Part shown: piece by piece, positions 1 through 36,321 of the stretch
How the letters are laid out: the number at the start of each line of letters is the position of its first letter
Position numbering within the stretch: the stretch's first letter is position 1
NCBI GenBank assembly: GCA_051362555.1
Contig: CM120647.1
Location: forward strand, 15,600,651-15,664,650
Origin: Lingula anatina
Taxonomy: Eukaryota; Animalia; Brachiopoda
Direction of reading: 5' to 3'
Length of the DNA: 64,000 bases
Notes under the pieces: model-generated
The model's input: the letters and a program-made list of their open reading frames with translations, nothing else
The model's database searches: none
What the model was told of the DNA's origin: nothing
Made by a program: the position numbers and the translations under genes

Positions 1-1106
1 CTGTAGGTTTTGCACTCTGTAAAAACGCTACATTTTTTACTCAAGAAATTGGCCCATCGCCTTTTTATTTAATTCTTCTTATATAGCATACGCAACTAAA
101 CACTTGCTGTTGTTTTCCCATTATTTTCCCCAAAGCTGAATGAAAAATGGGGATTAATTAAGCAAAGAGGATAATAAGTATGCATTCTTGCGGCCATAGG
201 ACTTTGACGACCCAACTTACAAATCAATTGTTTATATTTAATATTTGAATATTTTTTCTTTTAAGCTACGACATATGAATAAGCTACCACCAAGCATGTC
301 ACATCCCTATCACATTTGAAAGTTTGGTGGTGAAAACCTTTGTCAAAATTGAGAATGTTTTCAAAAGGCATTCATCTTACTACCTGTAGGATTTGGATTG
401 ACATTTTCTACATTTCTTTTTTTCGCATTAGATAATTTCAGTGCTCAAGGTCCTACCTGTGGCACTTGGTTAATTGCAATTAGGTAGCTGCCAGGGCTGT
501 GAGATGTTTGGTAGTAGCCTTGTGATCTCAAGTTGATTGCAATAAAGCAATGACCACAGGCATTCCAGTGCTCCAGGCCTTACCTGTGGTACTTGGTAAA
601 TTGCAATTAGGGGGAGTCAAATTTTCGTGGGGGAGTCAGATTTTCATTGTGTGCACATTTTTAATTTTCTTATTTTTTCATGAAAATTTTCAGCTGCAAA
701 CTACAAAAAAGTGCCAATGTATCCTCCATTTTACATACTACAAGATCACAGTCATATACTCAAATAAAATGAGATTTAGGCATTTTTGTTGGAAGGAGTC
801 AAATGTTCACGGGGGAGTCAGATTTTCATTATGTGCACATTTTTAATTTTCTTATTTTTTCATGAAAATTTACACCTGCAAACTATAAAAAAAGTGCCAA
901 TGTATCCTCCATTATGCATACTACAAGATCATAGTAATTTACTCAAATAAAATTAGATTAATGAATGTTTTTTGAGGGGGAGTCAAATTTTCATGGGGGG
1001 AGTCACATTTTCATTATGAAAATCTTTCATGGGAGTCAGATTTTCATAATGAAAAGCTGACTGGGGAGTCATATTTTAGGGGAGTCAGATTTTCATGGTA
1101 CATCTG
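1..1106. mobile_element. Right end of a probable DNA transposon inserted in the last intron of a peptide-gene copy
   Basis: ~200-bp direct duplication (~610-810 and ~810-1010) and clustered GGGAGTCAGATTTTCAT motifs up to 1097. At 1107 the sequence switches abruptly to TATTGTTGTGAGAAATTGTGAGA, homologous to ~6848 and ~16414, where this element is absent. The left end lies outside the window. Confidence 0.5.
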
Positions 1107-1326
1107 TATTGTTGTGAGAAATTGTGAGAGTGATAATGGCTCATAAAAACAAGGGATACTAGCACCATAGAAAAATTTTTAAACTAACAAATACAGTTTG
1201 CTCAAAGTTATCAATTGATGAACAAGATGAACGGTCTTTTCAATTTTTTTAGAAAGGGAAAGAGAGAGAAAGAGAAAGACATGGTGTCTGTTCGTGCATG
1301 TGTCAGTGCGTGTGGGTTTGTTTGTT

Positions 1327-1358
<32 letters not shown>

Positions 1359-1568
1359 TGTGTAGGTAAGGGGAGGTGGGAGGAGAAGGAGAGAACCAGG
1401 TTGTGTGTGCGCATGTCATATACTCCGATTGTCGATACTCCGATTCTTTTTGATATAATCTAATGCAACCTTTGTGATGTGCATTCAAATAAGCAAATTC
1501 AAAAAAATCCATCTGTATTCTAAATGGTCAGTTTAATGCAGCGGTTTATTATTTTTCAGTTTATACTT

Positions 1569-1660
<92 letters not shown>

Positions 1661-1665
1661 TTCAG

Positions 1666-1810
1666 AATAGTCTCCAGTCGAGAGGAAGCATGACCAGTTG
1701 GAAAATAGGAAACTTGTTACTCAGCTAAATGTAAAGCTGCTGCATTTGGATTTTTTTGTGAATTTTGTGTTCAACAATAAGTGGTCATAATAAAAATTGT
1801 ATTAAAATAC
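1666..1810 (+). other. Terminal exon of a third Cys-rich peptide gene copy (5' exons upstream of the window)
   Basis: Acceptor TTTTCAG|AATAG at 1665/1666 and AATAAA at 1789-1794; the same arrangement occurs at 7359/7497 and 16916/17049. Confidence 0.55.
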
Positions 1811-2313
1811 GCTGTATTTACTGTATAGTAAACGTTTTAAACATTTGTTGTTGTTGGAAATGGTATGAATGCTTTCTACGCCTCTGCTAGCGTATAAAAA
1901 AAAAAATAATAGAAAAAAAATTGGAATACCAATGTTTCTTGACCAATGTAGATCATTCCACATGGAATACGGTTCTGCCAAAGCACATAAAGTATCAATT
2001 TGTTTCCTGTATTATGAATATATAATTCTTTTCTAATTTTTTGTCAAATGCCTTGCTTAAAAATATTTATTACAGTAGTAATTCTGGCTGTTTTTAACTC
2101 AAACACGAAGACAAATTTCACAGTATTCATACCAGTGTCTCGCGATTAAAAACTAAACAGAAAAAGACTGTAAGTAAGTTTATCAACCACATTTCATGAC
2201 TATAGAAATTTATATCAATTCTTTTAAATTTGTTCTTTGCAGCAAACAAACATAGCAAAAATAATGATATCTTAATATGGATAGAAACATGAACGTGTAT
2301 AATAATAATAATA

Positions 2314-2349
<36 letters not shown>

Positions 2350-2589
2350 AGGAAAAATTCAGATATCCAATAAAAACAATATTAGTTTCTACAAGTTTAG
2401 TGGGCTGCCGTTCTGAACCAAGTAACGGGTAGGTCCGTGGGGGATATGTACTAAATTACCACGCCCTGTATTGGTGAGTGATAAAAAGTGGCTTTAAACT
2501 TGAGTCACTACTCATTCAACCACCAGCACACATTTTGAAAAAAACCGACATGAAGAATTCATAAGAACCAAATGTTAACTTGTAGCATT

Positions 2590-3685
2590 TCAAGTCCGAG
2601 TTGCTGTCTTTATTCTCTTTTTTTCATAAAGTTTTCCGCTGTAGCCATCTGGGCACTCACAGTAGTCGCCAATCAAGTGCCACCGTGCCACCGTTGACAC
2701 ACGCTTTACGGCATTCAATGGTCAGCCTCGCCATGCGCTGTTCTCCAATGAAACCACTTCTGCAGCTGCAGTAAAATAAAGTAATGTGATGAACAGCTTT
2801 CATGAAAGTGCTACGAGATATCACATGGAATTCTATATTCTGATTCTTAATGTATACATATTTTTATATATATTCAATTACGTTTATTTTTATTTGTGTT
2901 CCAGCTTCTGCATTATGTTTATTGAACTGACTAACATACCTACAGACTGGTTCATCATCGTCGTTAAAGATGCAGGTGCCTCCATTGTTACATTAAAGGT
3001 AACAGCCGCCCCCTAACCAGGGATATCTCTTCTTAAACTTCTCATCTTTTTCAACATGAAAGATGAAGCCGCAAATTAAAAGAAACAAGTTTCAATAAAT
3101 AAACAAATAAATAGATAAATAAATACGGATGTTACATATCATATTATCCTAATTTCAAGTCTTATTAGTTAAAATCACTACATGAATGAAACATTCTGTA
3201 TTCCTCCACTTACAATTGATGCATGTTTTCAAGCACTTTCCAAGTGACGTTTTTGCTCCAATTCCACCAGCGCACTGCTTTTCTGGGACACCTTTTCAGC
3301 GTAGCCTACAAGACCATTTTGCCACCTCTAGGCCGTACTGCCCACATCCCTCAGAACCGTTGTCGCCTTTGTAACAGCTACATGTATAAGGTGCCCAAGG
3401 GCTCCAGGCGGCAACTGAAATAATCTTTATGTGAGGCGTTTGCACGTGTTTCACATATTTATAAAGCAACCGCGATTTTGTATTTCTTAACTCTTAATAT
3501 TTTTTAACTCTGAATATTTGTTTAAACGCTGCATCCAAATTCAGTATCGGGAAGCAATAATAATCGTGGTAAAAAACTCACCTTACTGTGCCCTGGTTCT
3601 CCCGCAGCTTCTTAGGCGTGATTCTTCTCTGTAAGTAGCACCAAGACATGGGAGCTTTCCTAGAGATGGTGCAGGGCTATTGCAC
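2590..3685 (-). pseudogene. Duplicated MMP 3' exons (TSP1, TSP1, EGF, EGF), inactivated
   Basis: Homologous to 17770-19094. TTA>TAA stop at 3583-3585, CAA>TAA stop in the EGF exon (~2993-2995), a frameshifting deletion in the last exon, and no upstream MMP exons. Confidence 0.85.
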
Positions 3686-4433
3686 CTTAAATGTCATAAT
3701 TATTTCATTCATTCTCATTTCGTCAGTCTGCTAGAGTTATTCTATTAACATCACGCTATTTATATCACTCACAGGATGCTAGTTGTTATTTTCACCGACA
3801 TGATAGTCGTTCCAGGTTACGAAATCGTTTACTTTAGTCACTGGGTGGCATGGCTCCAGTACAGCTGTCATGACGAGACAAGTTTATAGTATCGGCGATA
3901 AATATTTCAAAATATGATAATTATGCAATTTTATCCGAACGGCAGGCTTAAAAACCAATCATTTGGTGGCAAGACGCCACAAATGTCGTCATCAAGACCC
4001 AAGTTTGTGACACCGTTAATTATTTTAAGTCAGCAGCAATTAACATTTTTATAATATGAATATAAATAATATTAAATTTATGTTACACTTTAACATGCGA
4101 ATAACAACAACAACAAAGAATGAATGTTTTATTTGGTTCCAAAAAGCAAGAGGTAGAAGCTTAGAGAGCAGAAAGAAGGGAGGAAGAATAAATCAGAGAA
4201 GAACAGGCGTGTGAGGCAGGTGTGAAGCAAAAGTCACGCAAAAAGGAACTACTTTCGCCGTGCGTTGCATTATCTTTGTACATGTTTACAAGTGAGTTCC
4301 ACGTACGCAGGAAGCAAGACAAACTCAAGAAATGAGTACAATTTCTACGGTCATCTCACCTTGAAATTAGCGTTCTTGCTTGGAAGGGCATCTGAAGTGG
4401 CCCCTTCGACTCGCAGGGCAGACGTATGCCTTT

Positions 4434-4732
4434 TCATTGAAAATTTTTCTCTACCTCTAGGAACTCCACGGCCTCCACTGCACCCAAAATTCGTAGGGGA
4501 CGTACGGTCTTGAAATTCGGGCGTCCGGTTGTGACTGAGGCTTTATCTTGGAGCTTCCATGTACGAGATGCCGTATTAATTCTTTTCATGCAAAGTTTTC
4601 CGCTGTAGCCATCCGAATTTGCAGTAGTCGTCAATCAAGGTCATCACGCACGTGCCACCATTGACACACCTTTTACGGCATTCATTGGACAGCTGCGTCA
4701 TGTACAGTTTTCCACTAAAACCACTTCTACAG
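4434..4732 (-). pseudogene. Extra isolated copy of the MMP last (EGF) exon with a different 3' continuation
   Basis: Reads [37 protein letters not shown], then a 1-nt frameshift, then DGYSGKLCMKRINTASRTWKLQ...KNFQ*. Confidence 0.7.
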
Positions 4733-5983
4733 CTGCTCTTAAAGTAAAGCAGTATGATGAACAGTTTTAATATAAGTGCTACGAGATATCATATAGTCCT
4801 CTTATTTGGGTATTTTAGATTCGATGTTAAAACAACCCAGTCTGATAACTTTCACGTTATTCAGTGTTAAGATCAATTTTCTACGTTTTGTTAAATAAAG
4901 TTGCTTTGACAAATTGGTGATGGTTTTATTGCGTGACGCTGTATATATAATGGTTAAGGAAATGTTTGAAACAAAAATATCTTGCTGGGACCATATTTCA
5001 TCGTGATTTGTATTATATCCTTATTTTACATCACTGCCGACTACTATTTGAAAGAAAAAAAAGCTGTTTAAATCCGAACTTTAGGAGAGTAGAAAAACCA
5101 ATAGGTACATAAATGAGTACATGAGCTGTTGCTGACATCAATAGTTCAAAATGAAAACTCCAGTGAATTAGATATATTTTAAAGATAAAGGCATGTATCA
5201 TCAGGCAGAAAGTTAGCGATAGGACATATTCATGTCTTTTGTTTGATGCTTGGTGTGTATCAAATACAGCGCCATGTACAATAATCAAATGCAATGAATC
5301 TTCTAGATTTTTCTAAAAGACAAAATGCTGAAACTTGGTCTGGCTTTTAATAAGATTAAAAAAGCAATAAAATGAATGAAATTATTGACAAAAAATCTGA
5401 AAAATAAAAAAAGATAATAAAAATTTAAAGATTGAGAACAATGGAGAGAAAACGAAATGTCGGCTAAGCATTTTGACCAACATTTCATTTACTTCAGTTT
5501 AAGATATTTAGTTGGAACTTTTAAAGAATTAAACAAATAATGGGAATACGGTAGGTGTTTTGAATTAAGGTAAATGTGCTGCAGGAATTACTTTTCAAAA
5601 AAATAATTTACAGATATGTTTGCAAATTTCTGAATTGTTTATTTTATAGTTAATTTCTAGAGAACAAGATTGCTTTCACCAAACGAGTAAACCTTTTTTG
5701 AATATTAATTTTAAAAATGCAACGAGAATTGAATGACTCCTGTCATCGATGAAGATAAACCATGATTGCAAAGTAATTTGGGTTGAAAAACTACAAAAAG
5801 AGAAAAATAATAAAAAATGGGTGCACTTTTACTGTTGGAAGACGCTTTGACTAATGATAATGGTTTTATTGCATAACACTGTCTATTTATGATTCAGGAA
5901 ATTTTTCAAACAGGGAATATCTTACTGGGACCATATTTCATGGCGATACTACTTTATATGTTTCCTTTGTTCGCACAGAATCG

Positions 5984-5990
5984 TATAAAT
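5984..5990 (+). promoter_or_regulatory. TATA box of peptide gene copy 1
   Basis: TATAAAT 100 nt upstream of ATG 6084; conserved at 15554-15560 in copy 2. Confidence 0.6.
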
Positions 5991-6083: not shown

Positions 6084-6703
6084 ATGATGTCGTGCGCCGT
6101 TCTTGTGCTTTTGGTGCTCTTTGCCAGTGTTGCCATAGAAGGTGAGTGAAACAAGTTATACTTCCATAATGACATGCATTATGTAAGGACATTGGTCTGT
6201 AATCTTGTAGTCAAGTAGTTTACTTCACATAGCCGGTTTTCAACAAAATACTAATTGAAAAAAACCTGACAAACCCAGCCGTTTTTCTCCTTCAAGCAAA
6301 ATGGTGCATTACTTTTGTCCCCCCTACCCCAACCCCTGTACAAACGGCAGTAAAGAATGAAGAAGACTCTTGACCAAAAACATGTATTTTGGGTTCGGAA
6401 AGGGCATTGATTGTGCCGGGAATAACTGGCATTATTTTTAAGTGAAATTGGTAAGAATCTGGATTTTATTTCCATTGTGTTACTTTACTTTCCTGATATT
6501 TGAATCTAGAACTTCCACAAAAATGAAAAGTCACATGTTTATCTTTGTATTCTTTTTATTTTTATGTAGACACAGCCGGGCAAATTGCGTATGAAGCTAC
6601 GTGCAACTGCTGTGGTCAGACTTGTAGTAGCGACCATGGGAGTTGCTACTGCGTCGGAACGTACCCCAACTGCCGCTGTGGTGCAATCGATCACACGAAA
6701 TAA
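6084..6703 (+). CDS. Small secreted 8-Cys peptide precursor, copy 1 (63 aa)
   Basis: Exon 6084-6141 (phase-1 GTGAGT donor) plus exon 6570-6703 give MMSCAVLVLLVLFASVAIEDTAG-QIAYEATCNCCGQTCSSDHGSCYCVGTYPNCRCGAIDHTK*. Hydrophobic signal peptide, upstream TATA, probable terminal exon from 7359 with AATAAA at 7497. Confidence 0.85.
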
Positions 6704-7063
6704 AAGGTTCTGTTATCACATATTTCATGGCAGTATTTTCACTAATACATATTCTGACCAGCTACCTGTTCTACATAAAGATGTTGATTATTGTGCTAAC
6801 CTAAGACTGCTAAACCGAGTAGTCAATTCTACAAGTCAATTGAGTGATATTGTTGTGAGAAATTGTGAGAATGAGTTACTGGCTCATAAAAACATGGGAT
6901 ATCAGCACCACAGAAAACTTTCTAAACTATCAAATACAGTTTGCTCAACGGTATCAGTTTACATAAAGACAGAAAAGTCTTTTAGAGAGGGAAAGAGAGA
7001 CGTGGTGAGACGTGGTGTCCGTGCGTGCGAGTGTGAGTGGGTGTGTGTTTGTGTGTTAAAAAC

Positions 7064-7094
<31 letters not shown>

Positions 7095-7277
7095 GGACGG
7101 GGGAAAGAGAGATGTTGGGAAGGTAGAGGGAGATGCGAGGAGAAAGAGAGAACCAAGCTGTGCGTGCGTATTGTCATATCCGATTGTCGATACTCCGATT
7201 CTTTTGTAAAGTAATATAAGGCAAACTTTATAATGTACAGTCAATTAAGCAATTAAAAATGCAACGGCTTATTATTT

Positions 7278-7335
<58 letters not shown>

Positions 7336-8013
7336 TGTTTGTTTGTTTGTTTTTTCAGAATAGCCAGCCTCTCGTCGAGAGGAAGCTTGACCAGTTGAAC
7401 ATACAGAAGAAAACAAGAAACTAGTCACTCAGCTAAATGTAAAGCTGGTGTATTTGGACATTTTTGTGAATTTAGAGTTCAACAATAAGTGGTCATAATA
7501 AAGCTTGTAGTAAACACGCTGTATTTACTGCATAGCCAAAGCTTTAAGCCTTTGTTAACGTTGTTGTTGGAAATCATTTGAATGCTTAATGCGCCTCTCC
7601 CCGCGTATTAAAAACAGTTGAAATACCAATGTTTCTTTCACAAATGTTGTAGATCATTCCATAATCATGGGATGTGGTACTGCTAATGTTTTCTACATTA
7701 TAAGTATAGATTTTTTCATTATTTGTCAAATGCCTCGCTTAGAAATATTTATTACAGTAGTATTTTTGGATGTTTTAAACTCTTTAATGTAGTGTCCAAA
7801 TACAGATTTCACAGTATTCATCCCCATGCTTAGTGATTAAAAACTAAACAGAAAAACACTGAAAGTAAGTTTTTCAAACACATTTCATTTTTATAGAAAT
7901 TTATCTCTATTCTTTTAAATTTCTACTTTGTAGCAAACACACATCGCAAAAATGATCTTGATATGAAAATAAACTTAAACGTGCATAATAATGAAAAATA
8001 CTACTACTACTAC

Positions 8014-8047
<34 letters not shown>

Positions 8048-8285
8048 TAGGAAAAATTCAGATATCCAATAAGAAAAAAATTACTTGCTACATGTTTAGA
8101 GGGCTGCTGTTCTGAATCAAGTAATGGGTAGGTCCGTGTGCGATTTTCAACAAATTACAAAGCCCTGCATTGGTGAGTGATAAGCAGATTTAAACCTGAG
8201 TCACTATTTATTCAACCACCAGCACACATTTTGAAATGACCAATATGAAGAATTCAGAAGAACCGAACATTATCTTGAAACATTT

Positions 8286-8622
8286 CAAGTACCAGTTGCT
8301 GTCTTTACCCTTTTTTTTTTTCAAGAAGTTTTCCCCTGTAGCCATCCGGGCACTCGCAGTAGTCGTCAATCAAGGTCATCACGCCATGCCACCATTGCCA
8401 CACTTTTTACGGCATTCATTGGTCAGCCGTGTCATGCACTCTTCACCACTGAAACCACTTCTACAGCTGCAGCAAATATAAAATACGGTGATGAATAGTT
8501 TTATACAAATGTAAGAGATATCACCCAAAAAAAAAAAAAACAAAAAACAAAAAACAAAAAAAAAAAAAAGACAGAAAAAAAAAAACAATTAAGCGGCTTG
8601 TATATATACTGAATTTATATAC

Positions 8623-8671
<49 letters not shown>

Positions 8672-9502
8672 TTTTCATTTGTGTTCTCTCTTCTGTATTG
8701 TGTTTGGTGAGCTGACTTACATACCTGCAAACTGGTCCATCGTCGTCGTTAAAGACGCAGGTGCCTCCATTGTTACATCAACTTTTTTGAATTGACATAT
8801 TAAGAAATGAAGAAATATTAATATACGAGTACAAATGATACATTGTCGACCACTGACAAAGAGTTTGCAAATGTTTCTCCTGTCTCTTTTTTCACATCAT
8901 CACCCCAATTTCAAGGCTTATTAGTCAAAAGCAATACAATAATGAAGCTTTCTGTTTTCCTCGGTACATGTACATGTTACTTACAGTTGGTGCATGTTTT
9001 CATGCACTTCCCAAGTGACGTGTTTGCTCCAATTCCACCTCCGCACTGCTCTTCTGAGACACGTTTTCCGCGAAGTCTACAAGACCGTGTCGCCACCTCT
9101 AGGCCGTGCTGCCAGGGCCGTAGCCTGAGCAAAATGCCAGGGGGGGCAGTAAGCGAACACGACGGGGCCAAGCCCCCGAGGGGGGAGGGGGTGACCCCCT
9201 ACCAGTGTGGAAAATTCTAAATCCCAGGGGGGGGGGGGCCGCTGCCCCCCTGCCCCCCCCCCCCCCCCGGAGGCTACGGCCCTGGCTGCCCACATCCATC
9301 TGAACCGTTGACGCCTTTGTAACAGCTATAAGGTGCCTAAGAGCTCCAGGCGGCAACTGAAAGAATAATAATAAAAATAATATTAAAAATTAAACAGAAT
9401 GATTGGTTTTATATAGTCCACATAATATTCTTGTATCCCCACAGCGTGGTATATCTGACTATGTGGTGACCACTATCAGATTGACTAACCGCCACTGACT
9501 CT
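8286..9502 (-). pseudogene. Second duplicated set of MMP 3' exons, inactivated
   Basis: 1-nt frameshift in the last EGF exon (…NGGMA*), first EGF exon truncated at ~8780, TSP1 exon split by a MITE (9113-9284), and a degenerate copy of the 19407-19494 exon at ~9420-9500. Confidence 0.8.
9113..9284. mobile_element. MITE (172 bp)
   Basis: TIRs CAGGGCCGTAGCC / GGCTACGGCCCTG; GCTGC duplicated at 9108-9112 and 9285-9289; empty site seen in the paralogous exons (~3335, ~18750). Confidence 0.85.
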
Positions 9503-10479
9503 AACGCTCACAGAAACACTATATAATGTCAATAAAATATGCTAAAATATATCTGACAAATCTAAATATAATTCACATTTAGGGATAGGAAATTTAGATT
9601 GATTTTATTAAAACGATTGGTCTTTAACGCGGTTGAATGCCTCAATTCTATATTAGCACCAATGGGGTTTTAATAGGGTCGCGCCACAAGGTTATTTTCA
9701 GTTGCACCCTGGATTACGCGCGCTTGCTCCGCAAGGTGTCGCTTGTGGTGGGAGGGGGGGGGGGGCGTCACAGCCCATATGGTTACTGTGGCCAAGGTGA
9801 CAGGTACTTCCAAACATTTTATCATAACTGTCATTATTCCTTGTTCTATTCACAAATTTGATATTTTCGGCAATGGAAAATGTGGCAATGGCAAAAGTGG
9901 GTCTAGGTGCATTGACAGGCCGCACAGGTGTCCCAATTGACCGCCGCCAGAGAAGAGACCCCAAGTATTAAACAACACAATCTATAGATATTGGAAAATT
10001 GGCAAAAGTTAAGCAACTGAGGCTTTATTAGATTTGGGGAGAAATCGAGAGTAATGTCCAGTGACATGCCAAACCCCTAAATTCAAGTCTTGGCCCTTGA
10101 CACCTGTAACGCACCCCTTAGTCAAGAATCTGAACAAATCAATGTTGGGCAGGTATGCTCTATATTCTACAGGCGTTTTGTGATTTTATCAACTTGATTG
10201 TCAAGTGCCAGACCTTTTGTTCCCAGGTCCTAGTAGCAAACTTTATCAGATAACAATCTGACACTAACAGCGCTGTAAACCCAGTTATCAATGCTGCCAT
10301 CTTTACCTGTATCTCTACCGGTATTATACCAGTGGTGTGTTTGATATATTTCAGTAGGGAAATATGCTGTGATGCTTATATTTATTTGTAATACGTTAGC
10401 ATTAACCTGTTAATAAAAACTTGGAACCTTTCAATATTATTACACAATAACAGTATAATGATGGGAGCTGTTATGCTTA

Positions 10480-12074
10480 CAGGGTTACCACTTAATATGG
10501 AATATTATTTTTTGGCGGGTAAATTTTCTACAAAATATTTAATTTCTCTCTAACTGCTTTAAATCCAAAGCTGACGCGTCACTCCGTGTGTAGCCAGGTG
10601 TGTTACCTAAGTACCACACAACTCTCGAAACAATTGATGCATGCAGTTGCATGTTCTGTGGTCAGAAATGTGAGGGGTGGTCTTTTCGGCAATTTCTGCC
10701 CTTGTACAAAAACGCATGAGTTTGGTCAATCTTTGGAGTGTGTTAAGAGAAGCAACAACGGGATCGCTCTGAAACTTGACAGGTACTTTAGTGAAGATAT
10801 GGCTCGACAGCTAAGCAACGCAGCTAACTATGGGATTCTTGCTCTCAGAGAATATGGCCAGAAACGGACAGCCATTGCCAGGTAATTCAACATTTATCAG
10901 GAACCGTTTGTGAAGTCCTCCAAAGAAATGCTGCAACAGGGGCAACTACTCCAATACCTCGACCAGGGTGTCCGCGTATCACACTAAGAAGACAGGATCG
11001 CCTTCTCCTTAGAGGACGCCGTGCTGGTCGTACAAAGACAACCAGTGTCCTCAGAAAAGAGAGGCAGAATGTCATTCAAACGTGTGTTAACAGCAGGTCA
11101 TATACAGCGACGTCTGCAATGGGCAGGAGACCACGTGCGTTTGCAGTCAAAACACTGGAATCACGTTGTTTTCAGTGATGAGACCAGATATGGATTTTTT
11201 AGGGTTGAACGTCGAATCCGTGTCCACCGACGTGTACGAGGGGCATAAAACGATGATTGTGTACTGCCTAGGGTGCAAGCAGGGGATGGTAACGTCTCTG
11301 TTTGGGGAGCATTTCATGTCGGTGCCCAGAGCCAGTTGGTTTTTCTAGGAGGCAATCTCATCCAGGATTCCTACAGAGACATTCTACAGCAAACAATGCT
11401 TCGATTGGTAAGAGTCATCTTCAGGAACAACTTTATGTACCAAGACGACTGCACAACCCCACATCGAGGCCGCAGAATCTCTGTTTTTCTTCAAAACCAA
11501 TGGGTTCAGCAATTGCCCTGGCCTGCAAACTCTCTAGATATGAACCCAAATTGAAAATGTGTGGGCGGAAGTAACTCAAAGATTTAATAGCTATGGTCCT
11601 CGGCCGGTAAATAGTGATGAACTGCGACAGGCAAATATCACTGCGTGGAATGATATCCCCACCCAAACTTTAAAAAAGGTGTCACAGGGTATGCCATGTA
11701 GGATGAGGGCGCTGCAAGCGGCTGCTGGAGGTCATACCCGTAATTACTTACTTCTCATGATTTACTGTAGTGAGTTCTTTGACTGTGTAACATATCACTG
11801 TCCGGATGCTATCATTTTGTTTAATATCTTATCTTAAAGTTAATACTGACATCAAACTGTTGATATGGTTTTCTGGGGGTGTTCCTTTCTTTTGAATGGC
11901 ATCTTATGTCAGATTTGATATTATTGACCAAAATATCTCACAACAGAAGACTGGATGTTATTATCACCAGGTGACATACTTTTTAAAGTGACTCAAGCCA
12001 AAAAAAAAAAAAAAATTAATCAGCACTCAAAAATAACAACGATAAAATATATTCCATATTAAGTAGCAACCCTG
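10480..12074 (+). mobile_element. Tc1-like DNA transposon, decayed
   Basis: Imperfect TIRs CAGGGTTACCACTTAATATGGAATAT / ATATTCCATATTAAGTAGCAACCCTG flanked by TA on both sides; internal transposase motifs WNHVVFSDE, VWGAF, YQDDCTTPH, WPANSLDMNPN, GGHT. Confidence 0.92.
10799..11745 (+). pseudogene. Tc1 transposase pseudogene
   Basis: Starts MARQLSNAANYGILALRE; in-frame stop at 10883-10885; the DDE motifs are split across several frames (ORFs 11021-11248, 11273-11554, 11559-11837). Confidence 0.85.
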
Positions 12075-12589
12075 TAGTTAGAAGAAATAATAAAAACAGA
12101 CTATGTGAAGTATATAATGAATTGATTTTATTTGAATTATTTATCTATTTATTTTTCAAACCAATTAATTATCATACATGAAGCTTATTTTTAGAAACAT
12201 CAACATATATTACATTAATATAACCCTGCTGGCACACAGATCTACAGTTCTAAAATGCAAATACCAAGTTCCTTTCACACACCACTGCTGAGATGTGAAT
12301 AATCATATGTATAAAGTAGTAAAAATATCACAAAATGTGTGTAGGAAAGATATTTCTACAAGTAACCTCATTAATCAGTCAGGAAACTTCATAATGCACT
12401 CAATAAATATAGAAATCTGAGCAAGAGAAATTCTACATACAGACATGACAGATTTACCATATATTGCCACCAACCCTAAACTGAATGGGCATAGAAAGAA
12501 CAAAGTGAATCTCCCTCCCATTAAAAATGAATAAAAAATAATTAAAAAAAAAAAAAAACAGATACTGTCATTCTTAATACTGAAAAAAC

Positions 12590-13750
12590 AATGGCACCTT
12601 GCAGCCTTCACTGCCTCACTATTTGCAGACAATGTTCTAGTCACTGTAACTGTGTACATTTGAGGAGGCATAGACGCAAGGATAACTCCTTTAAAGTATA
12701 TTATGAAGGTTTCTTTTGTCATAAATCTACCACATATAACCTGAATGTACATATTGCTATTCACACCGCAGCAGCTTGTCTTAGTAAAGACTCAACCAGT
12801 TGAAAACTTGTGGCACAGCTTCAGGGACAAGATCACACCAACTACCCTTGCTGTGATGATGGATCTACATTATCTTGTTCTCCTAGTTTCTCTGATGCCA
12901 TTTCCCCTTGTCTTTGCTCACATCAATCTCTACAGCTTTACTTACTGCTACACAGTTTTTGCATCTGAAAGTATACAGCAAAAATTGTAATAAAGCACTA
13001 TCAATTTACTTGTTATATATTGATTTCAGGGCGAGAGAAAAAGGCAGAAACCTCATACCATAATCAAAATAATTGAAAATCAAATATGCATAATCAAATA
13101 GCTATAATTGTACATACTAGTGATGATTTAATCTTTTAAACTTCAGCATAAATTTTGACTTTCTCTTGTTAAAGCATAGCCACTTTATCAAAATTTGCTT
13201 GAACAAATAATAATAACAATAATAATAATAATAAACAACCTGCACACATGATGGAACATGGATGTTAATTGCCACAAAAAAGTTGATACGTACTTGGTAG
13301 CCTGAGAAATAACATCAGGTATTAATTTAAGCAGCAATAATACCGCAAAGTTAACAACGACACAAGCATAGGGTGATATGCAACAAAATTTCATGCATTA
13401 CTTGCTGTGGCAGTGTCATCCTCAACCTATCGTGCACCGCAGGTTGTGATTTTCAGTGTCATCAAAATTTTATAATATTGTTAGTTTGACCTATGTATCT
13501 GCTATTCAAATAATATCATTTGGAAAATAACTAACTAATTTAATTATGCTTTTGCAACATGAAATTATCATTAACTTTGCCGATTCACGTGTACACAGTA
13601 CCTTGCTATCAGTGCTGCTCTTTTCTGCCTAACTCGCCACTGACAGGCTAACCGCATCAAAACAACGTATGATCCTTTACTTTTGGTGTAGGCAGTTTCG
13701 CCCCGGGGACATCGTCTTCGGTTAAAAACAACGTATCGTTCTCACCCATC
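12590..13750 (-). pseudogene. Degenerate SAP/SWIM-like transposon accessory gene fragments
   Basis: MGENDTLFLTEDDVPGAKLP (~13750-13690) and GVILASMPPQMYTVTVTRTLSANSEAVKAARCHC (~12690-12590) resemble, from recall only, the SAP and SWIM regions of SWIM/YqaJ proteins of invertebrate DNA transposons. They lie in a ~4-kb segment absent from the other amplification units. Confidence 0.4.
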
Positions 13751-14912
13751 TTTGCATTGCTCCTGTACAAAATGTCCACTTGACGCCCGCCCAAGGGAAA
13801 AATCGTAGCACGTGGGTAGTTACGCAAGTCCTGTGACGTGTAACGCGCGCAAGGTTATTCATTTAAATTTTTTTAATAATCGGAATTTGACTTTAAGACT
13901 TAATCAAACGTGTGAAAAAACGATGAGGGGTAGTTTACTTTTGATGTTAAAATCAACCTAGTCTGATAACTTTCACGCTATTCAAAGTTAAGTTCAATTT
14001 GCAACACTATGTGGGTCGTTTTGTGAAAAATATCTTTTCACTAGATAAGACGGAAAGTAAAACTGTGACGGCGGCAGATATTTTTCATCAAAGAAACAGC
14101 ACATGTTTTATTTGATCCACAGTTTTACTGAATCGTAAAGTGCATTACTTTTAAGAAGCAATGCACTCTGCGTCTATAATATGTGTGTTATAAAAATTGC
14201 ACATTAACCACGACGGAAAAGTATTACTGTTTGCAAAATTGTTTAAGTTAAGAACTGTTAATGAAGAAAAAGAAATAGTGTGAGTACACTTTTATTTCAA
14301 GAGGTTGATTTGACAAATGATGATGATTTAATTGCGTAACGCTGTATATAAATGATTAAGGAAATGTTTGAAATCAAAATGACTTGCTGGGACCATATTT
14401 CATCGTAATCTGAATTATATCCTTATAATACATCATTGCCAACTACTATTTGAAAGAAAAAATTAACTGTTTAAATCCGATCTTTAAGAGAGTAGAAAAC
14501 CATTACATACATAAATACATACAAAGTTCAAAATGAAAACTCCAGTGAATTACATATAATTTGAAGATATTGGCATATATATCATCAGTCAGAAAATTAG
14601 CGATAGGACTAATGCATGTGTTTTGTAGAGATGTTTGGTGTGTATCAAATACAACGTCATGTACATTTCCCCAATATTCAAAAGCAGTGAATCTTCTAGA
14701 TTTCTGTAAAAGACAAACACAACGACTGGGTCTGATTTTTGTTATGAAGTGCTGGGGATGAAATATAATAGGAAAAACAAAAGGAAACATGAGAAGTCGT
14801 CTAATTTTTTTTCTTAATGAGGCATTGAGGTATAGGTGTCAGCTTCTCGTAAAAAATGAAACATATTGATTAAGAATACTAAAAATCAGTAATATATAAA
14901 ATATAATAAAAA

Positions 14913-14969
<57 letters not shown>

Positions 14970-15553
14970 TATAATAATAATAATAATAATAAACAACGTC
15001 TTAACTCTGACATGCATTTCATTTACATTAGTGCAAGATATTTTAAAGGAATTTTTCAAATGTTGAACAAATAATGTTTCGCCCGAAGGTTAATCTTACT
15101 CGCGCATCCGCAGGAGCTAATTTTTTTTTTAAAATAATTAATTAACAGATGTTCTTGAAAATTTTTAATTTGTTCGTTCAGTTAGATACAACAGAATAAG
15201 ATTCTAAACAGAGTAAGATGGGGTTCAGCAAACGAGTAAATGCTTTAGAATCTTAAAATGACGATGGAAATTGAAGGTGTTATTTGTCTGTATTGAAATG
15301 GTTATTTTTATCAATGAAAACAGCACCATGATTACAAAGTTATTTAACTAAAAAAGAGAAAAAAGAAAAAGTGAGAGCGCGTGTGTTGTTGGAAGACGCT
15401 ATGACAAATGATAATGGTTTCATTGCATAACAGTATTTATGATTCAGGAAATTTTTGAAACAGAAAATATCTTACTGAGACCATATTTCATGGCGATCCT
15501 ATTTTGTATGTTTCCTTGCTGAAGATTGATTGACATTTGTTTGCACAGAAACG

Positions 15554-15560
15554 TATAAAT
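15554..15560 (+). promoter_or_regulatory. TATA box of peptide gene copy 2
   Basis: TATAAAT 97 nt upstream of ATG 15651, conserved with copy 1. Confidence 0.6.
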
Positions 15561-15650
15561 AGCGGCTTGGGTCGCGTAAGATAGCAAGCCTCTTACTAGA
15601 GAAGATTTAGAGAGTTTAGTCTTTTGCTAGGACTGCTTCATTGGAGAAAA

Positions 15651-16271
15651 ATGAAGTCGTGCGCCGTTCTTGTGCTTTTGGTGCTCTTTGCCACTGTTGC
15701 CATAGAAGGTGAGTGATACGAGTGATGCTTCCATAATAACAAGTGTTATGTAAGGGCAACGCATTGGTCTCTTATGTTATAGTGAAGTAACTAACCGGTT
15801 TTCAAAAAAATACTAATTGAAAAACCTGACAAATAAAACCCAGCCATTTTTCACCTTCAAGCAAAAAAGTTCAATACTTTTGTCAACCCCACCTTCTGTA
15901 CAAACGGCAGTAAAGAATGATAAAGAATCTTGACCAAAAACATGTATTCGGAAAGGGCATCGATCATGCCGGGAATAACTGGCATCGTTTTTAAGTGACA
16001 TTGGAAAGAACATAAATTTTACTCTCACTGTGCTTCTTTACTCCACTAACATTTGAATCTAGAACTTTCTCACAAAATAAATATCCACCATGGACTTTAG
16101 GAAACATGTTTATCTTTGTATTTTTATTTTTATGTAGACACAGCCGGGCAAATTGCGAAGCTTGCTACGTGCGAATGCTGTGGTCAGACTTGTAGTAGCG
16201 ACCATGGGAGTTGCTACTGCGTCGGAACGTACCCCAACTGCCGCTGTGGTGCAGACGATCACCCAAAATAA
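15651..16271 (+). CDS. Small secreted 8-Cys peptide precursor, copy 2 (63 aa)
   Basis: Exons 15651-15708 and 16138-16271 give MKSCAVLVLLVLFATVAIEDTAG-QIAKLATCECCGQTCSSDHGSCYCVGTYPNCRCGADDHPK*. Probable terminal exon from 16916 with AATAAA at 17049. Confidence 0.85.
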
Positions 16272-17481
16272 AAGGTTCAGTGATCACATTGTTCATGGCA
16301 GTATTTTCACTAATACATATTCTGCTAGCTATCTGTTTTACATAGAGATTTTCATTATTGTGCTAAGCTGAGACTGCTAAACCGAGGAGTAAATTCCACA
16401 AAGCAATTGGGTGATATTGTTGTGAGAAATTGTGAGAGTGAATTAATGGCTCATAAACACAAGGGATACCAGCACCACAGATAATTATTTAAACTTACAA
16501 ATACAGATTGCTCAAAGGTATCAGTTTAAAGACCGAAAGAAATAACGAGATGAACTTTTAAAATCATTTTAGAGAGAGAGAGAGATGGCCATGGTGTTCG
16601 TGAGTGTGAGTGCGTGTGTGTTTGTGTGTTAAAAGAGAGAGAGAGAGAGAAAGAGAGAGGTTGGGAAGGAAAGTGAGGTGAGAGGGGAACGAGATAACCA
16701 GCCTGTGCGTGCGTATGTTACATACTCCGATTGTTATATCCGGCTGTCGATACCCCGATTCTTTTGTGACATAGTCTAATACAACCTTCAGAATGAGCAT
16801 CCGTACAGGCAAATTAAAAAGAAATGAATCCGTATTCTAAATGATCAGTTTAATGGAACGATTTAATATTTTACAGTTCATATTTACAATATATTTTTTT
16901 TTGTTTTGTTTTCAGAATAGCCTCCCGTCGAGAGGAAACATGACCAGTTGGACATATTAAAGAAAACAGGAAGCTAGTCACTAAGCTAAATGTAAAGCTG
17001 CAATATTTGGACTTTTTGTGAATTTTGAGTTAAACAATAAGTGGTCACAATAAAGATTGTAGTAAATACGCTGTATTTACTGCATCGTCAAAGCTTTAAA
17101 CCATTGTTAACGTTGTTGTCATTTGAATGCTTAATACGCATCTGCCCGAATATTCCAAAAAATAAAAAAAAAAATAGTTGAAATACCAATGTTTCTTTCA
17201 CAAATGTTGTAGATCATTCCATGTTTCCTGCATTATAAATATAATTTTTTTCATTATTTGTCAAATGCCTCGATTAGAAATATTTATTGCAGAAGTATTT
17301 CTGGTTGTTTAAAAACTATTTAATGCTTCGTGATTAAAAACTAAACAGAAAAACACTGAAAATAAGTTTTTCGAACACATTTCATTTTTATAGAAATTTA
17401 TCTCAATTCTTTTAAATTTCTACTTTGTAGCAAACACACATCGCTAAAATAATCTTGATATGAATATAAACTAAAACGTGC

Positions 17482-17769: not shown

Positions 17770-18092
17770 TCAAGTACGAATTCCTGGCTTTATTCTTTTT
17801 TCACAAAGTTTTCCCCTGTACCCATCCGGGCATTCGCAGTAGTCGTCAATCAAGGTCATCACGCACGTGCCACCATTGCCACACGTTTTACGGCATTCAT
17901 TGCTCAGCCGTGTCATGCACTGTTCACCACTGAAACCACTTCTACAGCTGCAGGGAATGTAAAATAAGGTGATGAATAGGTTTATATAAGTGCTGAGAGA
18001 TATCGCCCAAAATTAGAAAGATACTATTTAGAAAAAAAAAACAATTAAGCGGCTTGTATATATACGGAATCCATATATTAATTTTTCTTTTT

Positions 18093-18154
<62 letters not shown>

Positions 18155-19314
18155 TGCATGTATTTTCATTTGTGTTCTAGCTTCTGCATTGTGTTTGATG
18201 AGCTGACTTACCTACAAACTGGTTCATCTTCGTCGTTAAAGACGCAGGTGCCTCCATTGTTACATTGCAGGTAACAGCCTCCCCCTAACCATGGATATCT
18301 CTTCTTAAACTTCTCATCTTATTCAACATGAAAAATGAAACCGTAAATTAAGAGCACAATCATACATAAATAAATACATACCGCCCTTACATATTATATT
18401 AAAAAATAATGCTAGGTTATACCTTTTTGGAAATGACATGTTAAGAAATGAAGAAATATTAATATACGAGTACAAATGATACGCTGTCGAACACTGACAA
18501 AGAGTCTGCAAATGTTTCTCCTGTCTCTTTTTTCACATTATCACTCTAATTTCAAGTCTTATTAGTCAAAAGCAATACATTAATGAAGCCTTCAGTTTTC
18601 CTCGGTACATGTACATGTTACTTACAATTGATGCATGTTTTCATGCACTTCCCAAGTGACGTTTTTGCTCCAATTCCACCACCGCACTGCTCTTCTGAAA
18701 CACGTTTTCCGCGAAGTCTACAAGACCGTGTCGCCACCTCTAGCCCGTACTGCCCACATCCCTCTGAACCGTTGACGCCTTTGTAACAGCTATAAGGTGC
18801 CCAAGAGCTCCAGATGGCAACTGAAAGGACCTTTATTTGAGGCGTTTGCATGTGTTTCACATATTCATAAAACAACTGCAAATTTGTGTTTCTTAACTCT
18901 TAATACTTGTGAAGGTCGGATAAAACGCTGCAAACCAAATTCAATATCAGAAAATAGTAATTATCGTGGTAAAAAAAAAATTCAGCTTACCTAACTGTGC
19001 CCTGGTTCTCCCGCAGCTTCTTAAGCATGGTTCTTCTCTGTAAGTAGCACCAAGACAAGGGAGCTTTCCTGGAGATGGAGCAGGATTATTGCACCTTGAA
19101 TATAATAATTATTTCATTCATTTCCATTTCTTCAGTCTGTAAGAGTTACTTATTAATGTCACGCTATTGATGTCACGCAATCGATGCTATAGTTGATAGT
19201 ATTATTGACCTGGTAGGCGTTCCTGGTTTCATTTAATAATTGTGTGGTATGGTTCGTGTACTCCCGTCATAATCAGAGAAGTTTATAATGGCGACAATTA
19301 CCATTTCTAATACA

Positions 19315-25186: not shown

Positions 25187-25958
25187 GTGTTCAAATGTGC
25201 ACTGGGTCATGTAAAAGCACATAGGAATTCACCTGCACGCATGCGCATTAGCTGCATCTGTGTCTATGTTTCTGCTTGTCATTTTACAACGATTTTAGAA
25301 ATATAGTCAAAGAGTGTTCTGAAATGGTTATTTCCTTATGTCATTTTCAGCTTTGGTGTATTCTCAACCTGACAAAATGAGAAAAAGTAAAAACAACATT
25401 TATTCACATTTTTGACATTGGGAAAATTTGGTCTTGGTCAAATGCATTACAACACATCTTTAAACATATGATAATAATATATATAAGAGATTTCGAACCT
25501 GAGGCAAGGTTAAAGGAAAACTCGTCATCGCCATTGATGGGAGAACGGTCAGGGGCGCTACAACGAGGCATGCGCATTACTTCCAACGTTTTATCGTCTG
25601 CTTCACCAGAAATGGCAATGTGCATGCGCTTCTGGAAGTCTTGCAATGCTTCGCGGAACTCGGACGCAGTCGCAAGTTTGGAAGAGCTTAGATACCCGTG
25701 TTTTACCAAAAAGTCCTGGAAAAACCGAACGGTCGTTTTTCAAATAGGTTGATTGTCTTTAGGGTGAGGTATGGGCGAAGACGCGAGACAGTCAGATTTA
25801 AAGAGTGGTAGAGAGAGATAAAGAAGGAGAGAGAAAGGGAGAGGGAAAGAGCGGCAGCACATGCTACTCACCTGTGCAAACTGGACGTCAGACAAAGGTG
25901 CAGAACTTATATAACAAGCACCAATTGCAAGAAGCATTCCAATGTCTAGAAACCTCAT
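17770..25958 (-). CDS. Matrix metalloproteinase (M10A) with Cys-rich, 3x LDLa, 2x TSP1 and 2x EGF modules; ~743 aa
   Basis: Phase-consistent exons: 25958-25872 (signal), 25715-25499 (propeptide, PRCSAPD switch), 25130-25024, 24316-24163 (HGDLFPFD…AHAF), 23663-23592, 23319-23161 ([11 protein letters not shown], Met-turn AVMWP), 22733-22635, 21995-21864 (GC donor), LDLa 21507-21382, 21000-20878 and 20408-20283, 20061-19870 (least certain), TSP1 19494-19407 plus 19094-18991, TSP1 18820-18626, EGF 18284-18212 plus 17947-17770. Total 2232 nt with no internal stop. Confidence 0.85.
21236..21390. repeat. ~18-bp minisatellite at the donor of the first LDLa exon
   Basis: Degenerate units of CACCTGTGCTCACCGTCT (minus strand GTGAGCACAGGTGAGACG). 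Confidence 0.75.
24361..24765. mobile_element. Possible non-autonomous interspersed element in MMP intron 3
   Basis: ~400-bp block starting AACTAGATG, embedded between AAT-rich tracts; the 3' part GCACGGACGCAC…GATAACATGATCCC…GGATAATAA recalls Helentron-associated elements. Family not verified. Confidence 0.3.
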
Positions 25959-26955
25959 GTTTATCGTCCTTCTAAGCTTATTAAGCACGTGTTATTTTAC
26001 TAGAGACAATCGCATTCAATGTGTATGTGTCCTTATCGTGCTGCATGCAAACGTTGTTTATCTTAAGACAACTCACTTAACTGAAAGTCAACGTTGGCTG
26101 TGTTACCTATTCATATAACCATCTAATAGCACTTTCATAGCCATTACTTGTCACGCATGTTTACTTAATGGCCTTCTTCACAATCAAACACAAATTAGCT
26201 TTAAAATATTTCTAAGTAAACTATCACAATCATGAGTTTGCAAACTCCACTTACGAGATGAAAAGTTAGTCATTATTTTGCGTCAGCGACTTCATTTGGG
26301 GGGGAAACTTAATATTTTTTTCAGCCGAAATAAATCATGTATATCAATGACCAGTACATGTTGCACATGTAACATCTTAGTGACAGATTTAGCCTCGAAT
26401 AAATACAGCAAATATCTCCAAGAAATGGTGTATATATGAACTACTTGTACACTGTACTGCAATTGTTGGACATTTATATTGTGCGGTTCGTTGGCATGTC
26501 TTTGAAGTTTTCGGGTGAAAGGTTTTCTTTTTATTCAAAACGTGACAAATAGATGGCATTTTACTTTAGTGAAGGGGTAAGGACCCCGTGCATATAAAGT
26601 TATTTATTAATGTAATTAATTGATTAGTTTCTATTGTAATGTTTAAAGATGTGCATTATTTAGAAGGTATATCAGCTGGTCAGAAAGGTAAATTTATAAC
26701 GCCGTTTTGCTTAAGACACAATTAGCTTTGATGCATTACTGGTTGGAGCTTTTGTGGTTTCAATAACAAAGAATCAATTTGGACATAAAAAGAAAAGAAA
26801 GACAAAAAACTAAATTGACTGATTCATATACAAGTATATACAGAAAGTGCGCCCTTCCTTTCCATGGCTTTATACAAGGTTATGGTACAGCGTGAATTAA
26901 AGGGTCAAAATCTAGGACAGGGAAATTAAAATTTAATTATCTCCACAAATCAATG

Positions 26956-34985: not shown

Positions 34986-35017
<32 letters not shown>

Positions 35018-36276: not shown

Positions 36277-36321
<45 letters not shown>

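What the first reader, a model, noticed from the sequence alone, without database searches (positions are those of the whole stretch)
6084..16271. Hidden family of small secreted 8-Cys peptides (C-x-CC-x3-C-x6-C-x-C-x6-C-x-C), toxin- or AMP-like
Seen: two complete genes (TATA, signal-peptide exon, phase-1 intron, mature-peptide exon) that the ORF track reads in the wrong frame, plus the terminal exon of a third copy at 1666. The predicted mature peptide is ~40 aa, starts with Gln after TAG and has 8 Cys. Established: a separate signal exon plus a disulfide-rich mature exon in tandem arrays is typical of toxins and defence peptides. Inference: pyroglutamate N-terminus and 4 disulfides. I do not recognise this Cys spacing as CS-alpha-beta defensin, ICK, ShK, Kazal, Kunitz or Bowman-Birk, so it may be an undescribed scaffold.
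Basis: partly seen in the sequence, partly recalled or inferred. Interest (0 to 1): 0.85.

Follow-up and report, generated by a model that had tools for sequence, protein, structure and literature searches.

The report
Lamp-shell eight-cysteine peptide family
A lamp shell (the brachiopod Lingula) carries tandem three-exon genes whose family is spliced and abundantly transcribed in many variants, encoding short, likely secreted peptides with a fixed eight-cysteine pattern that matched no family I searched, and they likely serve in host defence.

Summary
Two intact genes (ATG 6084 and 15651) each encode a 62-residue precursor: a predicted 23-residue signal and a 40-residue peptide spaced C-x-CC-x3-C-x6-C-x-C-x6-C-x-C. 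The organism is Lingula (a neighbour exon is 98% identical to an L. anatina protein). RNA reads show three exons, the third untranslated. Both introns are spliced at copy B's GT..AG sites, but mostly by relatives of copy B, not copy B itself. The family reaches about 890 reads per million in one run, with at least eight different N-termini. The only database relative is an uncharacterised L. anatina model that fuses two more whole precursors of identical spacing. Pfam and PDB sequences gave no hit. The ICK consensus, mytilin array, Bowman-Birk loop and ConoServer frameworks do not fit. A low-confidence model has two stacked beta-hairpins and weakly resembles the mini-granulin domain of an alphaD-conotoxin (Z 2.2, tied with unrelated folds). 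The peptides are not cationic, so membrane lysis is unlikely. Best reading: a Lingula-specific defence-peptide family on an undescribed disulfide framework; function untested (0.5). The main paper on Lingula immune genes could not be read, so novelty carries that caveat.

The parts
1107..2824 (+). 3' part of a third tandem unit: end of intron 2, untranslated exon 3 (from 1666) and downstream spacer; its coding exons are not in the window
   Evidence: blastn 74-80% to units A and B; no exon 1 or exon 2 match upstream
5984..5989 (+). TATA-like box of copy A, 100 bases before the ATG
   Evidence: in a block nearly identical to copy B
6084..6141 (+). Copy A exon 1, coding part: 19 residues of the predicted signal peptide plus one base
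   Evidence: reads of relatives cover it and stop at 6141
6142..6569 (+). Copy A intron 1, phase 1, GT..AG
   Evidence: homologous to the spliced intron of copy B; joint itself not listed
6570..6706 (+). Copy A exon 2: end of signal, predicted 40-residue 8-Cys mature peptide (6581-6700), stop 6701-6703
   Evidence: only thin read cover at 92% likeness (depth under 2 in X7)
7359..7540 (+). Copy A exon 3, untranslated, AATAAA at 7497 (3' end placed by homology with copy B)
   Evidence: covered by reads of relatives
15554..15559 (+). TATA-like box of copy B
15609..15708 (+). Copy B exon 1 (41 molecules begin at 15609 in X8; true start may lie further up); ATG at 15651
15709..16137 (+). Copy B intron 1, phase 1, GT..AG
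   Evidence: joint in 20, 390, 3, 0 reads of X7, X8, X9, X5
16138..16274 (+). Copy B exon 2: end of signal, predicted 40-residue 8-Cys mature peptide (16149-16268), stop 16269-16271
16275..16915 (+). Copy B intron 2, in the 3' untranslated region, GT..AG
   Evidence: joint in 1, 203, 6, 0 reads of X7, X8, X9, X5
16916..17094 (+). Copy B exon 3, untranslated; AATAAA at 17049; molecules end at 17094
17773..19108 (-). Passenger part of the tandem unit: four open minus-strand exons (EGF by Pfam; two TSP1-like by eye), broken in the earlier units

Best explanation
These are two intact members of a spliced, abundantly transcribed Lingula multigene family whose products are predicted to be secreted 40-residue peptides, likely stapled by four disulfides into two stacked beta-hairpins, and they likely act in host defence by binding specific microbial or parasite targets rather than by lysing membranes. 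Shown: three-exon structure, tandem duplication, splicing, many expressed variants, a fixed Cys spacing in 4 of 4 genomic peptides. Inferred: signal peptidase cuts after Thr-Ala/Ser-Gly; the exposed Gln cyclises to pyroglutamate; the four cysteines of the first hairpin pair with the four of the second; invariant Gly, Asp, Pro and Asn make the turns, while the N-terminal arm, the tip of hairpin 2 and the C-terminal tail vary and would form the binding surface. The array grew by segmental duplication, selection kept the peptide frames open, and gene conversion may have homogenised the scaffold codons.
For: Gene model and expression; 88, 894, 122 and 1.7 reads per million in X7, X8, X9, X5. Diversity: 6 different exon-2 starts among the 12 rows shown in table 5c (15 rows hidden), plus the directly joined type and one more; four genomic cores share all 8 Cys but only 6 of 18 other core positions; 0 of the 18 listed exon-2 coding variants fall in a Cys codon (only the 40 best of 222 rows were shown). 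Selection: passenger exons in the same duplicated units carry stops and frameshifts while both peptide frames are intact; all 7 codons that differ between A and B change the residue. Fold: four strands 9-13, 16-20, 23-28, 35-40; second hairpin also in the independent single-sequence model; only small disulfide peptide among 6 rows at Z>=2 is the alphaD-conotoxin domain 7txf_F, described as mini-granulin in PMC10133702. Non-cationic Cys-rich antimicrobials exist (stylicins, PMC11767717 passage). That constant-signal, variable-mature arrays are typical of defence peptides and toxins is established knowledge (recalled).
Against: No activity, tissue or challenge data. Net charge 0 to -3 in the four genomic peptides. 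No NF-kB-like site in 1.5 kb upstream or intron 1 of either copy. Models are low confidence (pLDDT 72 and 62; pTM 0.38 and 0.33) and differ in the first hairpin; Z 2.2 is tied with five large unrelated chains, mostly beta-propeller or WD-repeat types. Copies A and B themselves are at most minor contributors to the reads. Paralogues and alleles cannot be separated, and L. anatina populations are far apart (genetic distance 0.0759, PMC13425148 passage). The same architecture fits protease inhibitors, pheromones and structural secretions.
Confidence: 0.5

Rival explanations
1. Secreted protease inhibitors: hairpin 2 would present a canonical binding loop, as in Bowman-Birk inhibitors or the granulin-fold antistasins.
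For: Hairpin 2 is C-x-C-x6-C-x-C with an invariant Pro-Asn and variable residues at its tip; one relative has two prolines there. Antistasins share the mini-granulin fold (PMC10133702 section 16).
Against: The loop has 8 residues against the 9 of CTP1SXPPXC (PMC7760496 passages) and lacks the Thr and Ser; in register with the Pro, P1 would be an invariant Gly, which gives no specificity (inference). No Pfam inhibitor family at E<=10.
Confidence: 0.15
2. Toxin-like deterrents or neuromodulators that bind ion channels or receptors of predators or parasites, converging on the alphaD-conotoxin C-terminal domain.
For: Weak fold match to 7txf_F: Z 2.2, rmsd 2.1, 28 of 30 residues, 25% identity. Conotoxin-like pattern of constant signal and variable mature region; one expressed variant ends in Arg-Gly-stop, an amidation signal (inference). 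Best language-model neighbours are scorpion short toxins, but at 0.78, below chance level.
Against: Lingula is a filter feeder with no known venom organ (recalled). The pattern is not among the 31 framework rows in PMC11677113. The fold match is tied with unrelated chains, and a shared fold shows no function.
Confidence: 0.12
3. Structural or metal-binding secretion (mucus, pedicle cuticle, chaetae, shell periostracum) in which the cysteines cross-link or bind Zn/Cu, as in a secreted metallothionein-like peptide.
For: CC and CxC motifs, 1-3 His, invariant Asp residues, neutral to acidic charge, very high level in some samples. The mini-granulin fold has a zinc-bound form in Pirh2.
Against: Signal peptide and 2-3 aromatic residues, 20% Cys; metal-response elements at background rate (1 per 1.5 kb; 0.55 per kb window-wide). 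Lingula shell proteins are described as Gly/Ala-rich; the RefSeq accession is not in the supplement of PMC13425148 (that file seems to hold no sequences). Surface hypervariability is not expected of a structural part (inference).
Confidence: 0.13
4. Reproductive or other signalling peptides (spawning cue, gamete-surface recognition).
For: Strong sample dependence: 0 reads in X1 and X3, 2 in X4, 122 in X7 at 92%; rapid divergence and blocked termini also fit signals.
Against: Tissues of the runs are unknown, and zero counts are no test if those runs are of a distant population. No precursor with dibasic sites or repeats as in neuropeptides (sequence).
Confidence: 0.1

Closest known systems
XP_013403637.1 / LOC106168921, uncharacterised protein of Lingula anatina (P0008)
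   Same: Same family: E 8e-14, 59% identity; near-identical signal; same Cys spacing twice.
   Different: The model joins two whole precursors, each with its own Met and signal, likely a fusion of two tandem genes by the annotation. It has no name or function, and none of its accessions was found in the paper library.
Mini-granulin-fold peptides: alphaD-conotoxin C-terminal domain (PDB 7TXF), phi-MiXXVIIA, H-Vc7.2, antistasin
   Same: Predicted two stacked beta-hairpins cross-linked by disulfides; 28 of 30 residues superpose at rmsd 2.1.
   Different: No sequence match; 8 Cys in a different spacing; no dimerisation domain or propeptide; Z only 2.2; connectivity untested.
Bivalve 8-Cys defence peptides (mytilins; CS-alpha-beta class)
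   Same: Secreted, 8 Cys, multigene, variable, marine lophotrochozoan; a CxxxC followed by CxC is present.
   Different: Mytilin array does not match; mytilins are mostly cationic with an anionic C-terminal extension and a helix (PMC7168163 passages). Here no extension, neutral to acidic charge, no helix in either model.
Bowman-Birk inhibitor loop
   Same: Disulfide-flanked beta-hairpin with a conserved Pro near its C-terminal Cys.
   Different: 8-residue instead of 9-residue loop; no Thr-P1-Ser.

Membership tests
Secreted disulfide-rich peptide multigene family (general kind) | Spliced transcript with hydrophobic N-terminal signal and short Cys-rich mature region | tested here: met
   Joints; best 9-residue hydropathy 3.6 from residue 6; no signal-peptide predictor was available
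Secreted disulfide-rich peptide multigene family (general kind) | Invariant cysteines with variable residues between them across members | tested here: met
   8 of 8 Cys kept and 6 of 18 other core columns invariant in 4 genomic peptides
Secreted disulfide-rich peptide multigene family (general kind) | Mature peptide released with disulfides formed (and pyroglutamate) | not testable with these tools
   Predicted monoisotopic masses 4236.57 (A) and 4198.59 (B) if so
Inhibitor cystine knot (ICK) | Consensus C X3-7 C X3-6 C X0-5 C X1-4 C X4-13 C (PMC10133702) | tested here: not met
   0 of 28 six-Cys subsets fit; the best meet 3 of 5 gaps
Conotoxin frameworks | One of the ConoServer Cys patterns | tested here: not met
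   C-CC-C-C-C-C-C is absent from the framework table of PMC11677113
Mini-granulin fold | Two stacked beta-hairpins | tested here: inconclusive
   Present in the 3-sequence model (pLDDT 62); only hairpin 2 and two bridges in the single-sequence model; Z 2.2 to 7txf_F
Mini-granulin fold | Parallel disulfides linking the two hairpins | not testable with these tools
   Model coordinates were not returned; four Cys lie in each half
CS-alpha-beta defensins and mytilins | CxxxC followed by CxC in sequence | tested here: met
   C14-x3-C18 and two CxC
CS-alpha-beta defensins and mytilins | Alpha-helix carrying the CxxxC | tested here: inconclusive
   No helix in either model, both of low confidence; Atlas lead to scorpion short toxins at 0.78 is below chance level
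CS-alpha-beta defensins and mytilins | Mytilin array C-X3-C-X3-C-X4-C-X11-C..., cationic core, anionic extension (PMC7168163) | tested here: not met
Bowman-Birk inhibitors | Nine-residue loop CTP1SXPPXC (PMC7760496) | tested here: not met
   Eight-residue loop C-[VG]-G-x-x-P-N-C in 4 of 4 genomic peptides
Kazal, Kunitz, ShK, granulin, antistasin and other Pfam families | Match to the family profile | tested here: not met
   0 families for P0001 and P0002 at E<=10; only DUF3923 on the second signal of P0008, E 0.049, below cut-off; HMMER filters drop weak matches
Metallothioneins (features recalled) | No signal peptide, no aromatic residues, about 30% Cys, metal-response elements | tested here: not met
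   Signal present, 2-3 aromatics, 20% Cys, elements at background rate
Classical cationic antimicrobial peptides | Clear positive net charge | tested here: not met
   K+R/D+E = 2/3, 3/4, 1/4, 2/2; some expressed variants gain Arg
Classical cationic antimicrobial peptides | Antimicrobial activity | not testable with these tools
   Needs a bench assay

The most novel reading that the evidence does not exclude
A non-venomous, filter-feeding brachiopod has evolved its own conotoxin-style peptide library: an undescribed four-disulfide framework on a mini-granulin hairpin stack, reached independently of the alphaD-conotoxins, with scaffold codons homogenised between tandem copies and surfaces diversified, made at close to 0.1% of all mRNA reads in some samples and aimed at ion channels or receptors of predators and parasites.
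Probability: 0.12. Interest if true: 0.8.

Novelty: new variant of a known kind. Interest (0 to 1): 0.52.

Why it matters
Two recent reviews of marine or aquatic invertebrate antimicrobial peptides do not mention brachiopods at all (word search of PMC12466427 and PMC11767717). This family is abundant, diverse, short enough to synthesise, and present in RefSeq only as one fused, unnamed model, so annotation-based surveys would miss it. It gives a direct test of what a brachiopod secretes for defence and a new, likely very stable four-disulfide framework. If the fold is mini-granulin, it is another independent use of that fold for a bioactive peptide. Lineage-specific cysteine-rich peptide families are common in marine invertebrates, which keeps the surprise moderate until a function is shown.

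Tried and rejected
No RNA holder listed by the index; the nine runs came by species label. No whole genome held, so copy number in the genome is unknown. Word-based search of 5.8 billion proteins of 23-76 residues: no candidate; it could not see the 150-residue fused model. The three weak phmmer hits P0009-P0011 (E 4e-4 to 9e-4) are long repeats or a zinc-finger exonuclease without the Cys pattern: rejected. PDB sequences: 0 hits at E<=10 with one sequence and two profiles. Foldseek: nothing at E<=0.001 for either model; VIA: no row at Z>=2 for model 1 or in the re-look at 1 chain; such blanks do not show a new fold. ESM Atlas: no usable feature hit for whole P0008, best 0.78 for residues 24-64, structure TM all under 0.5. 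Metagenome scan: 2 of 248 pattern matches passed, both sharing only the 8-residue seed, lacking the other cysteines, one in a frame with stops: rejected as chance. No further exon-2 start in the window. A loose read end that could be read as an FGL-amide neuropeptide motif lines up by eye with the start of untranslated exon 3: rejected. Earlier findings by sequence, relatives, near place and words were blank. Gerdol et al. 2018 (Dev Comp Immunol 82:7) and Nielsen et al. 2019 (JBC) are not held. No complex prediction was run, since no binding partner is claimed.


Full report
Observation. The window is AT-rich animal DNA (GC 31-43%). Two near-identical genes start at 6084 and 15651. Exon 1 gives 19 mostly hydrophobic residues (best 9-residue hydropathy 3.6) and ends in a phase-1 GTGAGT donor. 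Exon 2 gives 43 residues and a stop, with cysteines at 11, 13, 14, 18, 25, 27, 34 and 36. The pattern occurs exactly twice in the six frames against 4e-7 expected. TATAAA lies about 100 bases before each ATG. The feature at 1666 is real but is the untranslated last exon of a third unit whose homology begins at 1107; its coding exons are not in the window.

Organism. A neighbouring DEG/ENaC exon (32610-33113, minus strand) is 98% identical over 90% of its length to a Lingula anatina protein. The window is therefore Lingula anatina or a very close form. Earlier unreviewed notes on this genome also say Lingula; I did not rely on them.

Gene model from RNA. The index listed no RNA holder; nine runs were offered by species label, of which I laid seven. 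On copy A at 92% likeness, X1, X3, X4 and X7 gave 0, 0, 2 and 122 reads and no listed joint; 37 X7 reads stop at the donor 6141 and continue into a different exon 2. On copy B at 82%, X7, X8, X9 and X5 gave 975, 9572, 1401 and 14 reads, that is 88, 894, 122 and 1.7 per million. The joint 15708/16138 (GT..AG) has 20, 390, 3 and 0 reads, and a second joint 16274/16916 (GT..AG) has 1, 203, 6 and 0. So intron 2 opens 3 bases after the stop and exon 3 is untranslated; molecules end at 17094. The libraries appear unstranded, so the strand rests on the splice ends. Against over-reading: 537 of 552 X8 reads at 16152 carry another letter than copy B, and only 168 of 9572 are 99% or more alike, so the reads show the family, not these two copies in particular.

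Family diversity. Table 5c shows 6 different exon-2 starts in 12 rows (15 rows hidden); with the directly joined type and the type there are at least 8. All keep Thr at -3, Gly or Ala at -1 and Gln at +1 of the proposed cut, while the next residue is Ile, Val, Asn, Ser, Phe, Ala or His. This supports cleavage before Gln (inference; cleavage after Ala17 is the alternative). One variant ends in Arg-Gly-stop, a likely amidation signal. Depth over exon 2 is 28%, 58% and 85% of depth over exon 1 in X7, X8 and X9 (bins 16182-16242 against 15633-15693), so more divergent members likely exist and the mix differs by sample; short-exon edge effects could contribute. Of the 40 variant rows shown (of 222), 18 lie in the coding part of exon 2 and none in a Cys codon (p about 0.025 if uniform; rows were chosen by support). 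Alleles and paralogues cannot be told apart, and populations of this species differ widely (PMC13425148 passages).

Database relatives. Pfam, PDB sequences and the word search gave nothing. phmmer against 1.84 billion representatives gave 4 hits at E<=0.001. One is real: P0008, XP_013403637.1, uncharacterised LOC106168921 of L. anatina (E 8e-14). It holds two whole precursors head to tail, each with its own Met, signal and the same Cys spacing; I read it as two tandem genes fused by the annotation. The other three are chance. Across the four genomic peptides the 8 Cys and 6 of 18 other core residues are invariant; pairwise identity outside Cys falls to 7 of 18. No relative outside Lingula was found, but other brachiopods are thinly represented and their transcriptomes were not searchable.

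Evolution of the array. Units repeat at about 5.7 and 9.6 kb. Each also carries minus-strand exons, one an EGF domain by Pfam and two TSP1-like by eye. They are open in the last unit and broken by stops or frameshifts in the copies at 2.6-3.7, 4.6-4.7 and 8.3-9.4 kb. These passengers are an internal control: they decayed while both peptide frames stayed open. Between A and B both introns differ at 14.5% of aligned sites, yet exon 2 has a 78-base identical run, and synonymous differences are 1.5 in 44 sites (p about 0.04 against the intron rate). All 7 differing codons change the residue, and the 5 in exon 2 differ at two or three bases each. This suggests exon-limited gene conversion or patchwork exchange among paralogues; the numbers are too small to claim positive selection (pN 0.10, pS 0.06 in the mature region).

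Structure. The single-sequence model has pLDDT 72.5, pTM 0.38, a hairpin 25-27/34-36 and two bridges. The 3-sequence model has pLDDT 61.9, pTM 0.33 and four strands. Foldseek found nothing significant for either. The wide VIA search gave no row for model 1 and 6 of 48,161 chains at Z>=2 for model 2: five large chains, mostly beta-propeller or WD-repeat types, and 7txf_F, the C-terminal domain of alphaD-conotoxin VxXXB (Z 2.2, rmsd 2.1, 28 of 30 aligned, 25% identity). PMC10133702 (abstract, passages and section 16 read) describes that domain as a mini-granulin fold of two hairpins joined by parallel disulfides, shared with antistasin, EGF-like domains and a zinc-bound lobe of Pirh2. Four cysteines fall in each half of the Lingula peptide, which would allow a four-rung ladder between the hairpins. 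This is a lead only: the Z is tied with unrelated folds.

Mechanism. Most likely the precursor enters the secretory pathway, loses 23 residues, forms pyroglutamate and four disulfides, and is released as a compact, protease-resistant peptide whose variable arm, hairpin tip and tail bind a target. Host defence is my best guess (0.5) from the constant-signal, variable-mature architecture, the high and sample-dependent level and the diversity. The four genomic peptides are neutral to acidic, so membrane lysis is unlikely for them; some expressed variants gain arginines. No NF-kB-like site was found and metal-response elements are at background rate. Rivals are protease inhibition (0.15), structural or metal-binding secretion (0.13), toxin-like action (0.12) and reproductive signalling (0.10).

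Comparison with known families. The ICK consensus fits 0 of 28 six-Cys subsets. The mytilin array does not fit (PMC7168163 passages). The Bowman-Birk loop is one residue longer and needs Thr and Ser (PMC7760496 passages; found through PMC11253845 passages). The pattern C-CC-C-C-C-C-C is not in the ConoServer table (PMC11677113 passage). A text search for it listed 13 papers; I opened 5, and in all 5 it was part of a longer pattern of 10 or more cysteines; 8 were seen as listings only. A CxxxC followed by CxC is present, so a CS-alpha-beta fold is not excluded, though neither model has a helix.

Is it in print? Ten searches found no description; the RefSeq and UniProt accessions occur in 0 papers. 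Passages of the 2015 genome paper and the 2026 shell-proteome paper, and term searches of their one supplement each, showed nothing on it; the latter supplement seems to hold no sequences, so motif blanks there mean little. PMC7203481 mentions brachiopods only for big defensins. Two reviews have no brachiopod entry. The key paper on Lingula immune genes (Gerdol et al. 2018) is not held, and it or its supplements may list this family.

Verdict. A real, expressed, diverse and apparently undescribed family of small 8-Cys peptides of a brachiopod: a new framework within a well-known kind of molecule. The gene model is firm, the fold is a weak lead, the function is open. Interest 0.52.

Noticed in passing
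window 17773-19108 (-), with broken copies at 2593-3693, 4582-4746, 8314-9363: Minus-strand exons (EGF by Pfam, TSP1-like by eye), likely the 3' end of the neighbouring LDLa-containing gene at about 20.7-21.6 kb, were duplicated with the peptide genes and decayed in all but the last unit.
   Followed up: partly
protein P0008 (XP_013403637.1): The RefSeq model joins two complete precursors and is likely a fused annotation of two tandem genes.
   Followed up: partly
window about 10800-12080, second piece at 53825-54129: Decayed element in the spacer between copies A and B with Tc1/mariner-like transposase motifs (recalled; no Pfam hit; second copy).
   Followed up: partly
window 613-1100: Tandemly repeated block rich in GGGGAGTC motifs (613-833 matches 795-1018 at 88%) that interrupts the third unit; possibly a mobile element.
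   Followed up: no
window 45833-46699: Large inverted repeat (arms of 166-176 bases, 97-98% complementary, with an internal 18-21 base tandem unit) between TSP1 exons; MITE- or foldback-like. A second inverted pair lies at 43830-44735.
   Followed up: no
window about 45000-60900 (-): Two or more secreted-looking genes with VWA and TSP1 domains and a long Thr/Pro-rich mucin-like exon (47801-49054).
   Followed up: no
window 25404-37790: Matrix-metalloproteinase-type prodomain exon (PG_binding_1), a lipase exon and a DEG/ENaC channel gene; the first channel exon found only a 50% Lingula relative while the last is 98% identical to one.
   Followed up: partly
reads on window 16273-16296: One expressed relative does not use the donor after the stop but reads on about 22 bases before joining exon 3.
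   Followed up: no
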